In this document: positions 31,994-36,809 of the stretch, in pieces
How the letters are laid out: every line of letters starts with the position of its first letter
Numbering within the stretch: position 1 is the first letter of the stretch
From: the human T2T-CHM13v2.0 reference genome, Homo sapiens
Reading direction: 5' to 3' (one strand)
NCBI RefSeq assembly: GCF_009914755.1
Contig: NC_060935.1
DNA: 64,000 nt
Notes under the pieces: model-generated
What the model saw: the letters and a program-made list of their open reading frames with translations, nothing else
What the model was told of the DNA's origin: nothing
Databases searched by the model: none
Translations under genes and position numbers: made by a program

Positions 31994-33394
31994 CAGGAAC
32001 CTGGGTATTTATCTTGTTTATTCATATTAACTTCTGTGAAATTAAAACAATACAAATTATCTTTCAGAATTCTTGTGTGGGTGAAATAAAGTATTGAATA
32101 TAGAAGCTCTATGTAGATTATTATGAAACATTATTGTATTTAATACTGATAATATAAATTCGAATGAACTCAGTTATTTTTGAGGCATTTTTAGACAAAG
32201 GGCACAAAGCTATTTATTATTTAATGGAGGCCTTATTTCCTTCACCGTGAATTCTATATTTGATAATTCATTTTCCATTTTTAAGATTTAATTTTTTAAA
32301 TTGGCATTATTATAGCATCAGATATTGAAATGGAATTGTACAGGAAATTGGCAATAATTGCTAGAGAAATGAAGGCTAATTACTATACTTACTTTTAACA
32401 CAATGTAAAAGCTCTGACAAAACAAATTAGGAGGTTTTCTCATCACCACAGCAACAATTTTCAACTTTGTTTTGCCTTTCTGAAAATATAACCAGTCAAG
32501 CAAAGTTAATTTAACTTGAGCAGAGTGAAAAATTGATTTGTTTTTACATGATGCAATTAGGCTTTAAAAAAAAGTCAAGTTAAATAATGATAAGCACAGT
32601 TTAATTTGTTTATAAGCCCTTTAGGAACTGTATTTTGAGTTATAGCTAACAAGAAATTGACTATAAAATAAGGAAAAAGATTTGACTGGTGGAATGTCTT
32701 ATTTCTTTTTGTTTGTGTCATTTATTTGAAATTACATGGTTGGTATAAATTAGTAACAACATTTGTATGCATTATGTCCTTCAGAAAGGCTTGTTGACTA
32801 TTACCTATCTATTAAAGAGGGACACACTTAAAATGACTCACTTATTTAACTCAAAATAAATATGCCTCCTCTTAAAGAAATCTACATACTCCAAACACAA
32901 ATGAGGGATATATGACAATATCCTTGAAATCAGGAATGTCTGAATTCTATCCATAACATAGCAACTATAAGCAAATAGCAAAGATTGAACATGAGATGAT
33001 ATTTGATCAAAATAATTATTTTTACTGAAGATTTTTGTGGGTATCCTGGCACTTCAATCTTAAATAATATGAGAAAAAGTAAAACATCAACCATTTATTT
33101 CTGACTAGATTACTTACATTATCTGTGTTCACCAAGATTCCCTTGATTTTTCAAGTTATGTATTTTTATTTACGTTTTGAAAAAAGTTTTGCTAGGTAAG
33201 CTCATCTACTTTCTGACCTTTGCACTCTTCCCTGTTCCTGGAGTTTTCTTCTCTTAGCTTTTTACATGATTGCTTTGCTCATTCTCTTCCTTTAGCTTTG
33301 GGTTCAAATGTCTTCTCCCTTAGAGGGCTTTCCCAATGGCACTATCCCAAAAGGCTTTCCCCAGTAGCCTTCTCTCATTAACTTCGACTTTTTC

Positions 33395-34887
33395 TTTTTT
33401 TTTTTATTTATTATTATACTTTAAGTTTTAGGGTACATGTGCATAACGTGCAGGTTTGTTACATATGTTTACATGTGCCATGCTGGTGTGCTGCACCCAC
33501 TAACTTGTCATCTAGCATTAGGTATATCTCCTAATGCTATCCCTCCACCCTCCCCCCACCCCACAACAGTCCCCAGAGTATGATGTTCCCCTTCCTGTGT
33601 CCACGTGTTCTCATTGTTCAATTCCCACCTATGAATGAGAATATGCAGTGTTTGGTTTTTTGTTCTTGCGATAGTTTACTGAAAATGATGATTTCCAATT
33701 TCATCCATGTCCCTACAAAGGACACGAACTCATCATTTTTTATGGCTGCATAGTATTTCATGGTGTATATGTGCCACATTTTTTTAATCCAGCCTATCAT
33801 TGTTGGACATTTGGGTTGGTTCCAAGTCTTTGCTATTGTGAATAGTGCCACAATAAACATACGTGTGCATGTGTCTTTATAGCAGCATGATTTATAGTCC
33901 TTTGGGTATATACCCAGTAATGGGATGGCTTCGTCAAATGGTATTTCTAGTTCTAGATCCCTGAGGAATCGCCACACTGACTTCCACAATGGTTGAACTA
34001 GTTTACAGCCTCACCAATAGTGTAAAAGTGTTCCTATTTCTCCACATCCTCTCCAGCACCTGTTGTTTCCTGACTTTTTAATGATTGCCATTCTAACTGG
34101 TGTGAGATGATATCTCATTGTGGTTTTGATTTGCATTTCTCTGATGGCCAGTGATGGTGAGCATTTTTTCATGTGTTTTTTGGCTGCATAAATGTCTTCT
34201 TTTGAGAAGTGTATGTTCATGCCCTTCACCCACTTTTTGATGGGGTTGTTTGTTTTTTTCTTGTAAATTTGTTTGAGTTCATTGTAGATTCTGGATATTA
34301 GCCCTTTGTCAGATGAGTAGGTTGCGAAGATTTTCTCCCATTTTGTAGGTTGCCTGTTCACTCTGATGGTAGTTTCTTTTGCTGTGCAGAAGCTATTTAG
34401 TTGAATTAGATCCCATTTGTCAATTTTGGCTTTTGTTGCCATTGCTTTTGGTGTTTTAGACATGAAGTCCTTGCCCATGCCTATGTCCTGAATGGTAATG
34501 CCTAGGTTTTCTTCTAGGGTTTTTATGGTTTTAGGTCTAACGTTTAAGTCTTTAATCCATCTTGAATTGATTTTTGTATAAGGTGTAAGGAAGGGATCCA
34601 GTTTCAGCTTTCTACATATGGCTAGCCAGTTTTCCCAGCACCATTTATTAAATAGGGAATCCTTTCCGCATTGCTTGTTTTTCTCAGGTTTGTCAAAGAT
34701 CAGATAGTTGTAGATATGCGGCGTTATTTCTGAGGGCTCTGTTCTGTTCCATTGATCTATATCTCTGTTTTGGTACCAGTACCATGCTGTTTTGGTTACG
34801 GTAGCCTTGTAGTATAGTTTGAAGTCAGGTAGTGTGATGCCTCCAGCTTTGTTCTTTTGGCTTAGGATTGACTTGGCGATGCGGGCT
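33395..34887 (-). mobile_element. L1PA2/PA3-like 5'-truncated L1 (ORF2 C-terminus, 3'UTR, tail)
   Basis: Near-consensus ORF2 translation ([16 protein letters not shown]...FIGGN) with one nonsense codon; lacks the L1HS ACA diagnostic; TSD AACTTCGACTTTTTC at 33380-33394 and 34953-34967. Confidence 0.97.
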
Positions 34888-34952
34888 TGCACCCGATCTC
34901 GTTTGATCTCGGAAGCTAAGCAGGGTTGGGCCTGGTTAGTACTTGGATGGGA
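34888..34952 (+). pseudogene. 5S rRNA pseudogene fragment (about nt 24-88) fused to the L1 5' junction
   Basis: TGCACCCGATCTCGTTTGATCTCGGAAGCTAAGCAGGGTTGGGCCTGGTTAGTACTTGGATGGGA matches human 5S at 61/65 by my alignment; three of four differences are CpG transitions. Confidence 0.96.
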
Positions 34953-36809
34953 AACTTCGACTTTTTCATCACACTTACCATAATCTGTCAGCATACAGCT
35001 CCATTAGGGCAGGTGCCATAAATTAATATGAGTTATAAAATAAATGAATGAACACATATAGTGACTTATAATTGTAGTCTGTGAGTACACATATACTCTC
35101 ATCCCCTAAAAGAGGCAAACGACACATTACTGATATTTATTGAGAGCCTTCTCTGGGTTCAAGACAGTTGTAGAGATATACAGACTAAAAAGTATTTTAT
35201 CTTTTATGTTCTGATTTTGAATGCATGGGTGAGACAAAATAAATTGTAGCAAGCAATATAAAATTGCATAATTTAAGTACTGTAATTTTAGTTTGAGAAT
35301 TCAGAGAAAGAGAGAGAAATCAATGAGAGCTGGTCCTCACTGAGAGCTTGATGGGATTCTAGGCATCTTCAGTACCTTAAAGCATGAGTGTATTTTTGTC
35401 TTCTTGTATTTGAGTACTCAGAAATTTGAAGAGAATTGGGACTGTCACTCTATTTTAAGAAATAGTCTTATTTAATAGGCCAAGGTCCTTTACATGTATG
35501 TGTAAAGTAAATCTCAGAGATAGTTTAAGATACACAATCCACTACTACCATGTGCCTTGCTGAAGTAATTTGAAACCCATGTGGTTTAGTTTTGTGATGG
35601 TGCTGTCTTCACAGATGATACAAATGATAAGTTTTGATGCTGTCAGTCTATGTCCAGGCTTTACAATGGAAACTATGGTTACTACCTGGTCCCTGCATTT
35701 GCAAAGGAGTGCTTAGCATTTGGTATACGACTAACAGCAAGTTCTAGATTTTAGCTCCTTTTAACCTTCTAGTCAAACTAAGCCTTTGATAACCCATTTT
35801 ACTGAAATAACCAATGCCTACATTATCAATTTTAAATTATGAAAAGATACTTAGAGCAATAAGTTCAATGGCAGCTTTTGACCAATAACACATAAACTTT
35901 CTTTTACCTATGTTGGAAATAATTTCTGTCTCAATAAAAAACAATATCAAAGTATCTTGCCAGAATTATTCAATACTAGGTAGAGGTTTTTGGAACCAGT
36001 TATTTCTTGCAAATGTATTATTTAAAATGTGTATATTTTTATATTCATGCTAAGTTAGAGTAGCCTCCAACTGAACCAAACTGACTTAAAATCAATTAAT
36101 TATTCACTGCGAGCTATAATGTTTTAAAAAAGTCACAGATGCAAATTAGACAATTTGGTTCATGATAAACTAAGATACTTCACTTGCTGAAAAACCTATT
36201 TCTTCATATAATTCTATGGATTTTGTATTTGATGTGCTTCCACATTTTTAACACTGCTTTGCCATGCCTTTGTGGACTGCGATGTTGTTTTCTCTCATTC
36301 AGAGACCTGAAAAACTAATTAACTCATTTGAACTGGATGACTAAAGTGCAAAAGTAATCTGTCACAACTAAAAACATAAATTCAATGTTTTTTCCCATCA
36401 CAGTCTAGTGCACTTTTTTCTGTAATGCAGTATAATCAAAAGATTATGAACTTTGAGGTCAGACCAGAGAGCAAATCCTGACTGTCACATATTTCCTATA
36501 TGACCATCAAGTGACTTCACTTCTCTGAGTTTCAATTGCATTGTCTATACAACAACAAAGAGTTAAAAAAGAATAAGACCTATTATGAAGGCTATATTGA
36601 GATTGTAAGAGCTTGGAACATATGAGGCACTCTTCCTGGAATGTTTCCCAGCCCCTCTCTTCTTCAAAATCAACTCCAGGATTATCTAACCACAATGATA
36701 TAATGCAAAGGGTTTTCGGACTGGGAGCAGTTTTTGTCCCTGCTCTGTCACTAACTCAGTCTTTAATCTCAAGCAAGTACATAAGTACATTCGGAATTTC
36801 AGTTGCTTA

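What the first reader, a model, noticed from the sequence alone, without database searches (positions are those of the whole stretch)
33380..34967. L1/5S rRNA chimeric retrocopy with the 5S piece internal and inverted: candidate twin priming in trans
Seen: one perfect 15-bp TSD pair (AACTTCGACTTTTTC) encloses a minus-strand L1PA2/3 3' end plus 5S rRNA nt ~24-88 on the plus strand, joined with no filler. Established: classic small-RNA/L1 chimeras (U6-L1 type) have the small RNA co-oriented with L1 and usually 5'-complete, and twin priming normally inverts part of the same L1 RNA. Inference: reading the L1-sense strand from the TSD 3' end (...GAAGTT) gives 5S cDNA directly (TCCCATCCAAG...), as expected if the second-strand nick primed ORF2p on a different RNA. 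The primer's last three bases can pair with 5S nt 89-91 (G-T, A-T, C-G). 5S is a plausible bystander because L1 RNPs assemble at ribosomes. Best candidate in the window for an under-described mechanism; I cannot confirm novelty without a literature search.
Basis: partly seen in the sequence, partly recalled or inferred. Interest (0 to 1): 0.85.

Follow-up and report, generated by a model that had tools for sequence, protein, structure and literature searches.

The report
Inverted 5S/L1 retrocopy, already catalogued

Summary
A perfect 15-bp target-site duplication (33380-33394 and 34953-34967) encloses an 11-nt poly(A) tail and 1,482 nt of L1 3' end on the minus strand. Joined to it without filler is 5S rRNA nt 24/25-88 on the plus strand. 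The L1/5S junction is unique in the genome.

The anatomy fits twin priming on two RNAs. The first nick primed on the L1 poly(A). The second nick, ending ...GTT-3', primed on 5S RNA inside loop D and copied it from nt 88 down to nt 24/25.

This is not new. The exact locus is a row in Table S2 of Law and Burns 2026 (PMC13174262), listed as L1PA3 with 5S:25-91, the same 15-bp duplication, and flagged as arriving together with the L1 in species alignments. In that table 23 of 27 5S/L1 chimeras are antisense, and the paper proposes twin priming. Doucet 2015 proposed the same model for snRNA/L1 chimeras. Mendez-Dorantes 2024 saw de novo two-RNA inverted insertions.

My own survey adds only context: nt 88 is a recurrent reverse-transcription start on 5S RNA.

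Verdict: real, correctly interpreted, already known, low interest.

The parts
33380..33394 (.). Target-site duplication, copy next to the L1 poly(A) tail. Its T-rich 3' end on the + strand (...CTTTTTC) is the first-nick primer.
   Evidence: perfect 15-mer, only two copies in the window. Same TSD listed in Table S2 of PMC13174262.
33395..33405 (-). L1 poly(A) tail, seen as 11 T on the + strand.
   Evidence: read directly.
33406..34887 (-). 5'-truncated L1 (L1PA3 by RepeatMasker): the C-terminal third of ORF2 plus the 3' UTR. It starts about 81 codons after the end of the reverse-transcriptase domain.
   Evidence: 98-99% and 96.7% identity to other genomic copies. (280/291 identity to an ORF carrying RVT_1). 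(L1PA3 label). (L1 homology ends at 34887).
34888..34952 (+). 5S rRNA nt 24-88, inverted relative to the L1. Base 34888 is shared by L1 and 5S nt 24 (1-nt overlap). The nt 88 end abuts the TSD and lies in hairpin loop D.
   Evidence: ungapped alignment to the canonical 5S gene L006, 61/65 identical. (Rfam 5S hit and structure line). (5S:25-91 in Table S2).
34953..34967 (.). Target-site duplication, copy next to the 5S piece. Read on the - strand, its 3' end ...GAAGTT is the inferred second-nick primer. Its first three + strand bases AAC face 5S nt 89-91 (GAC).

Best explanation
One L1-mediated insertion made by twin priming on two different RNAs. Apart from the boundaries each step cites, the steps are inferred from the sequence anatomy.

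1. ORF2p nicked the window's + strand after ...AACTTCGACTTTTTC.
2. That T-rich end primed on the L1 poly(A). A first cDNA ran 1,493 nt into ORF2, shown by the tail and L1 boundaries.
3. The opposite strand was nicked 15 nt away, after ...GAAGTT, shown by the TSD length.
4. That 3' end paired with 5S rRNA at G89/A90/C91 as T.G, T-A and G-C, in and next to hairpin loop D. ORF2p then copied 5S from A88 down to nt 24/25.
5. The two cDNA ends were joined with a 0-1 nt overlap and no filler, either by end joining or by a template switch of the first cDNA onto the 5S cDNA.
6. Gap repair produced the 15-bp TSD.

Whether the 5S RNA was intact and primed internally, or already cut in loop D, is left open. 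I lean towards internal annealing.

The element has no evident function. It is a fossil of an L1PA3-age event.
For: - One perfect TSD pair encloses both parts.
- Antisense 5S sequence is attached directly to the TSD 3' end on the L1-sense strand. There is no filler at either junction.
- The 15-bp TSD matches the discrete 12-18 bp TSDs reported for twin-primed de novo insertions (passages).
- The 5S start at nt 88 lies in the Rfam hairpin loop, columns 88-91, which are human nt 87-90.
- The junction 26-mer has 1 match in the whole genome at up to 3 mismatches. Only the locus itself covers a 141-nt junction query (40 of 613 candidates scored).
- Published catalogue: this locus is a row of Table S2, flagged both as found by proximity and as predicted contemporaneous from species alignments.
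- In that table 23 of 27 5S/L1 chimeras are antisense. Of the 23, 11 end on the TSD side at nt 80-102. The paper proposes twin priming for them.
- The same model, with target/RNA complementarity, was proposed for 7 snRNA/L1 chimeras.
- De novo insertions with two RNAs in opposite orientation have been observed experimentally.
- My survey found 18 genomic 5S copies that stop at nt 88: 3 antisense to L1, 1 antisense to an Alu inside a 14-bp TSD, and 14 stand-alone. The two bases at +2/+3 after nt 88 are AC (matching 5S nt 90-91) in 6 of 18, against a 5.2% background (binomial P 2e-4).
Against: - No orthologous primate locus could be examined here. The one-event timing rests on a flag in a published table.
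- Pairing at the priming site is weak: two Watson-Crick pairs plus a terminal T.G wobble. By strict identity the base next to nt 88 is a mismatch (A versus G).
- The 5S cDNA stops at nt 24/25. In the catalogue most copies reach nt 1-5; 9 of the 23 antisense rows start later.
- A 5S fragment already cut in loop D would give the same product. The catalogue paper leans towards processing, and its main text has no occurrence of 'microhomology' or 'anneal'.
- cmscan offered another alignment with a 12-nt deletion that places the 5S end near nt 101. It is less parsimonious but not excluded.
- My survey pattern required a non-G at nt 89, so it is a selected sample.
Confidence: 0.85

Rival explanations
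1. Twin priming as above, but the template was a 5S fragment already cleaved in loop D (3' end near nt 88-91). The second-nick end started at the fragment's 3' end rather than annealing inside an intact 5S RNA.
For: Law and Burns note recurrent truncation at nt 46 and 90 in loops C and D and suggest targeted processing. Pairing at this locus is only 3 nt including a wobble.
Against: Noll 2015 report finding neither oligo(A)-tailed truncated 5S retrocopies nor matching truncated 5S cDNAs, and argue for internal priming (passages). In my 18 nt-88 copies the flank matches 5S nt 90-91 more often than background, 6 of 18, P 2e-4. Locus L048 shows 7 of 8 target/5S matches over nt 84-91. In Table S2 the TSD overlaps the 5S annotation in 18 of 23 antisense rows (no null model computed).
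Confidence: 0.1
2. Two independent insertions: a 5S retrocopy and an L1 that landed next to each other.
For: Stand-alone 5S copies ending at nt 88 are common, 14 of the 18 in my survey.
Against: One perfect TSD pair encloses both parts. Neither part has its own TSD, and there is no filler. The published table flags the two parts as contemporaneous in species alignments.
Confidence: 0.02
3. Retrotransposition of a ready-made chimeric transcript from a source locus that already had the inverted 5S/L1 junction, or RNA ligation before reverse transcription.
For: RNA ligation by RtcB is reported for U6/L1 chimeras (abstract of PMC6789731 in the listing).
Against: Ligation of 5S RNA to L1 RNA would give a sense-oriented 5S. 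The junction 26-mer is unique in this genome at up to 3 mismatches.
Confidence: 0.02
4. The first-strand reverse transcriptase switched template from L1 RNA onto a free antisense 5S nucleic acid, without priming from the second nick.
For: None found. It would give the same internal junction.
Against: It does not explain why the antisense 5S sequence begins exactly at the end of the TSD with pairing potential to the target. No antisense 5S transcript is known to me (recalled, not searched).
Confidence: 0.01

Closest known systems
Antisense 5S rRNA/LINE-1 chimeric insertions (Law and Burns 2026, Cell Genomics, PMC13174262)
   Same: This exact locus is row 16 of the 5S sheet of Table S2: hg38 chr11:104251093-104252581 minus, L1PA3, 5S:25-91 plus, TSD of 15 bp, cleavage AT/GAAA. 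Orientation, truncation near nt 90, TSD and EN-like site are all typical of the class.
   Different: Nothing of substance. The L1-side end at nt 24/25 belongs to the minority: 9 of the 23 antisense rows do not reach nt 1-5.
[quoted passage not shown] 2015, MBE, PMC4476161)
   Same: Same model: the second-strand nick primes inside a small RNA, giving a 3'-truncated inverted small RNA joined to a 5'-truncated L1 within one TSD pair. There is complementarity at the junction, and truncation falls in a single-stranded loop (passages).
   Different: The partner RNA there is U5, U1, U2 or U6 rather than 5S.
[quoted passage not shown]
   Same: The inverted segment is attached to the upstream TSD. The TSD has a discrete length, and the internal junction shows little or no microhomology.
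   Different: Classically both cDNAs copy the same L1 RNA. Here the second copies 5S rRNA.
U6/L1 chimeras by template switch or RtcB ligation
   Same: A small RNA plus a 5'-truncated L1 inside one TSD pair.
   Different: U6 is full-length and in sense orientation. Here 5S is truncated at both ends and antisense.
Tailless 5S retropseudogenes (Noll et al. 2015, PMC5322556; Schmitz 2004 not held)
   Same: Reverse transcription starts inside 5S at a loop, with no poly(A) on the 5S part and with target complementarity. 14 of my 18 nt-88 copies are of this stand-alone kind.
   Different: Those are primed from the first nick, are 5'-complete and stand alone. Here the 5S part is primed from the second nick and is joined to an L1.

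Membership tests
Antisense 5S/LINE-1 chimeric insertion (Law and Burns catalogue) | 5S-derived sequence within 50 bp of the 5' end of an L1 fragment | tested here: met
   0-nt gap with a 1-nt ambiguous overlap at 34888.
Antisense 5S/LINE-1 chimeric insertion (Law and Burns catalogue) | 5S in the opposite orientation to the L1, and truncated | tested here: met
   L1 on the minus strand, 5S nt 24-88 on the plus strand.
Antisense 5S/LINE-1 chimeric insertion (Law and Burns catalogue) | One TSD pair encloses both parts, with a poly(A) tail and an EN-like cleavage site | tested here: met
   Perfect 15-bp TSD and an 11-nt tail. The cleavage site AT/GAAA is scored as an EN motif in Table S2. It differs from TT/AAAA at two positions by my reading.
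Antisense 5S/LINE-1 chimeric insertion (Law and Burns catalogue) | Both parts arrive together in species alignments | not testable with these tools
   No primate genomes are available here. The published table gives found_by_msa_prediction = 1 for this row.
Twin priming | The inverted cDNA starts at the 3' end of the upstream TSD copy on the element's sense strand | tested here: met
   On the minus strand ...GAAGTT is followed directly by the complement of 5S nt 88, 87....
Twin priming | Microhomology between the second-nick primer and the template | tested here: inconclusive
   Two Watson-Crick pairs plus a terminal T.G wobble against 5S nt 89-91. By strict identity the adjacent base is a mismatch.
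Twin priming | Both cDNAs copied from the same L1 RNA | tested here: not met
   The inverted part is 5S rRNA. This makes it the two-RNA variant described by Doucet 2015.
U6/L1-type template-switch or ligation chimera | Small RNA in sense orientation and full-length at the L1 5' end | tested here: not met
   The 5S piece is antisense and spans only nt 24-88.
Tailless 5S retropseudogene | Stand-alone, 5'-complete 5S copy, 3'-truncated in a loop, flanked by its own TSD | tested here: not met
   The nt 88 truncation site is shared, but the copy starts at nt 24/25 and shares its TSD with an L1.

The most novel reading that the evidence does not exclude
The 5S piece was primed by annealing of the second-nick DNA end inside loop D of an intact 5S RNA or RNP, not on a pre-cut fragment. 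The same start point, nt 88 with pairing to nt 89-91, is used from the first nick in stand-alone tailless copies. It is also used from the second nick in chimeras with L1 and, at L048, with Alu. Loop D of 5S would then be a general landing site for ORF2p initiation at any free DNA 3' end. The enzyme acting at the second nick would not need to be engaged with the RNA that was copied at the first nick. The catalogue paper leaves this point open and leans towards RNA processing. Noll 2015 already argue for internal priming in the stand-alone copies, so only the extension to second-nick events would be new.
Probability: 0.5. Interest if true: 0.25.

Novelty: already known. Interest (0 to 1): 0.1.

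Why it matters
It matters little beyond confirmation. The locus is a clean textbook example of a two-RNA twin-primed L1 insertion, with a perfect TSD, no filler and a unique junction. It could serve as an illustration or as a positive control for chimera-calling pipelines. The class, its orientation bias, its breakpoints and its proposed mechanism are in print, and this locus is in the published table. The one open point it touches is whether the second-nick primer anneals inside intact 5S RNA or uses a pre-cut fragment.

Tried and rejected
- Pfam on the window's own ORF2 fragments found no family. This is expected, because the fragment starts after the RT domain. I established L1 identity through a longer copy instead.
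- A genome-wide listing of a 5S core 21-mer found 465 matches, but only the first 100 places were listed and nearly all were the chr1 array. It was useless for a survey. I replaced it with a pattern that excludes canonical copies.
- L051 first looked like an Alu/5S inverted chimera. It is a 5S copy split by a later Alu insertion with its own TSD, so I rejected that reading.
- L003-L005 shared the window's apparent 5S boundaries in BLAST, but they are near-full-length 5S pseudogenes. They are not related fragments.
- The L1 copy L058 carries Alu insertions, so its hits at about 4640-4930 and 5278-5586 were discounted.
- Schmitz 2004 is not held.
- No timing by species was found for this locus in the readable supplements. 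The PDF supplements with the supplementary figures could not be read.
- I did not compute a null model for the TSD/5S-annotation overlaps taken from Table S2.
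Full report
**What is there**

The 15-mer AACTTCGACTTTTTC occurs exactly twice in the window, at 33380-33394 and 34953-34967. No further copy appears even with two mismatches allowed, and shuffles gave a mean of 0.14 matches.

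After the first copy come 11 T, then sequence ending in the canonical L1 3' end read in reverse, continuing to 34887. This stretch has these matches:
- It is 96.7% identical over 1,493 nt to another genomic copy, L058.
- It is 98-99% identical over 588 nt to the 39 other best-scoring copies (40 of 1,619 candidates scored).
- Its minus-strand frame 34011-34886 is 280/291 identical to residues 501-791 of an open 922-aa frame in copy L015. That frame carries Pfam RVT_1 at residues 164-420.

The window's own fragments hit no Pfam family, as expected for a piece that starts after the RT domain.

From 34888 to 34952 the plus strand aligns without gaps to nt 24-88 of a canonical chr1-array 5S gene (L006; Rfam 114.6 bits). 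There are four differences, three of them at CpG sites. Rfam finds 5S on the window at 32.3 bits, E 3.6e-4.

**Junctions**

In 6 of 6 plus-oriented L1 copies the base after ...GCGGGCT is C. 5S nt 24 is also C, and the window has T at 34888. The L1/5S junction therefore has a 1-nt ambiguous overlap and no filler.

At the other end, 5S A88 is followed directly by the TSD. Its first bases AAC face 5S G89-A90-C91. On the L1-sense strand the TSD 3' end ...GTT can therefore pair with the RNA as T.G, T-A and G-C. The Rfam structure line places the hairpin loop at model columns 88-91, which are human nt 87-90. The start therefore lies in loop D.

**Single event, and no source copy**

One TSD pair encloses both parts, and neither part has a TSD of its own. 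A 26-mer across the L1/5S junction has one match in the whole genome at up to three mismatches. Only the locus itself covers a 141-nt junction query (40 of 613 candidates scored). Orthologous primate loci could not be examined with these tools.

**Mechanism**

The anatomy is what twin priming predicts if the second nick uses a different RNA.
1. The first nick falls after ...CTTTTTC on the plus strand and primes on the L1 poly(A).
2. The second nick falls 15 nt away on the other strand, after ...GAAGTT, and primes on 5S RNA.
3. The two cDNAs are joined end to end.

All steps are inferred from the sequence. The rivals are listed in the report sections with their weights:
- two independent insertions;
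- a ready-made chimeric RNA or a source locus with the same junction;
- a template switch onto an antisense 5S molecule;
- a 5S fragment already cut in loop D.

Only the last rival is a serious one, and it is a variant of the same model.

**What is known**

Law and Burns 2026 (PMC13174262). I saw the abstract and outline, passages found by term search, section 18 in full, the whole 5S sheet of Table S2, and part of Table S3.
- The text states that 5S segments in 5S/L1 chimeras are typically antisense and truncated, with truncations at nt 46 and 90 in loops C and D.
- It states that an antisense bias may indicate twin priming.
- Table S2 lists this very locus: hg38 chr11:104251093-104252581 minus, L1PA3; 5S at chr11:104252583-104252649 plus, 5S:25-91; the same 15-bp TSD on both sides; cleavage AT/GAAA; EN motif yes. 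It is flagged as found both by proximity and by alignment-based prediction of contemporaneous arrival.

My count of that sheet:
- There are 27 rows, 23 antisense and 4 sense. Three of the four sense rows have no TSD.
- The TSD-side end of the 5S piece is at nt 50 or lower in 12 antisense rows, and at nt 80 or higher in 11.
- The TSD coordinates overlap the RepeatMasker 5S annotation in 18 of 23 antisense rows, with a median of 3 nt. I computed no null model for this.

Other papers, all read as passages only:
- Doucet et al. [quoted passage not shown] They noted junction complementarity and truncation in a loop.
- Mendez-Dorantes et al. 2024 (PMC11702581) report de novo insertions with two RNAs in opposite orientation. 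They also report microhomology of 2 bp or more at 71% of the 5' junctions of inverted insertions.
- Noll et al. 2015 (PMC5322556) describe 555 human tailless 5S retropseudogenes truncated in loops, and argue for internal priming with target complementarity.

Schmitz 2004 is not held. Ostertag and Kazazian 2001 was seen only as a cited reference.

**My own survey, for context**

A pattern of 5S nt 71-88 followed by any base except G found 35 places in the genome.

Seventeen are near-full-length 5S-like copies in pericentromeric and acrocentric regions. Sixteen were flagged by the script. L045 was assigned by eye as part of a tandem pair.

Eighteen stop at nt 88:
- Three are antisense to an L1 3' piece: L027, L034 and this locus. 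All three are rows of Table S2.
- One is antisense to a 5'-truncated Alu inside a perfect 14-bp TSD (L048).
- Fourteen are stand-alone sense copies. Several have clear flanking repeats, for example 15 bp in L023 and 12 bp in L024. For others I judged the repeats by eye, or found none.
- L051 is one of the stand-alone copies. It was split by a later Alu insertion.

After nt 88 the next-but-one bases are AC, matching 5S nt 90-91, in 6 of 18 copies. The background in the same flanks is 5.2% (binomial P 2e-4). A occupies position +2 in 15 of 18. At L048 the target matches 5S nt 84-91 at 7 of 8 positions. This favours annealing of the DNA end to 5S RNA. The sample is selected, however, because G at nt 89 was excluded by design, and A-rich endonuclease sites also contribute.

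**Verdict**

The locus, its class and the mechanism are already published, so novelty is 'already known' and interest is low. The only open point is whether the 5S template was primed internally or was pre-cut.

Noticed in passing
L048:1488-1689 (G000 C14, about 69562269-69562471): A perfect 14-bp TSD encloses a long poly(T), a 5'-truncated Alu in antisense, and 5S nt 49-88 in sense. It has the same architecture as the finding, but with Alu as the first-nick RNA. The target matches 5S nt 84-91 at 7 of 8 positions. I did not search whether Alu/5S inverted chimeras are in print.
   Followed up: partly
L029, L035-L038, L041, L042, L044-L047, L049, L050, L053-L055, L057 (pericentromeric and acrocentric parts of C6, C9, C13, C14, C15, C21, C22, C24): Seventeen near-full-length 5S-like copies share substitutions at nt 89-90 (TT or CT in place of GA) and similar flanks. 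They are probably one segmentally duplicated pseudogene family.
   Followed up: no
L034 (G000 C8, about 139922576-139922652) compared with window 34949-34968: The TSDs of this locus and of the chr8 5S/L1 chimera (Table S2 row 11) are alike at 13 of 17 positions next to 5S nt 88. Part of this is explained by pairing to 5S nt 89-91 at one end and the T-rich nick site at the other. The rest may be chance.
   Followed up: partly
window 34885-34921: The RefSeq pseudogene RNA5SP348 covers 37 nt. It begins 3 nt inside the L1 and ends well before the 5S homology does, at 34952.
   Followed up: yes
L051:about 1126-1518 in 5S-sense orientation (G000 C16, near 75305495): A stand-alone 5S nt 1-88 retrocopy is interrupted at nt 39 by a full-length Alu with its own TSD. 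At first sight it mimics an inverted chimera.
   Followed up: yes
window 48848-50325, 47256-48058, 13941-14190: Older L1 3' fragments lie elsewhere in the window, at 86%, 76% and 89% identity to the L1 of the finding.
   Followed up: no
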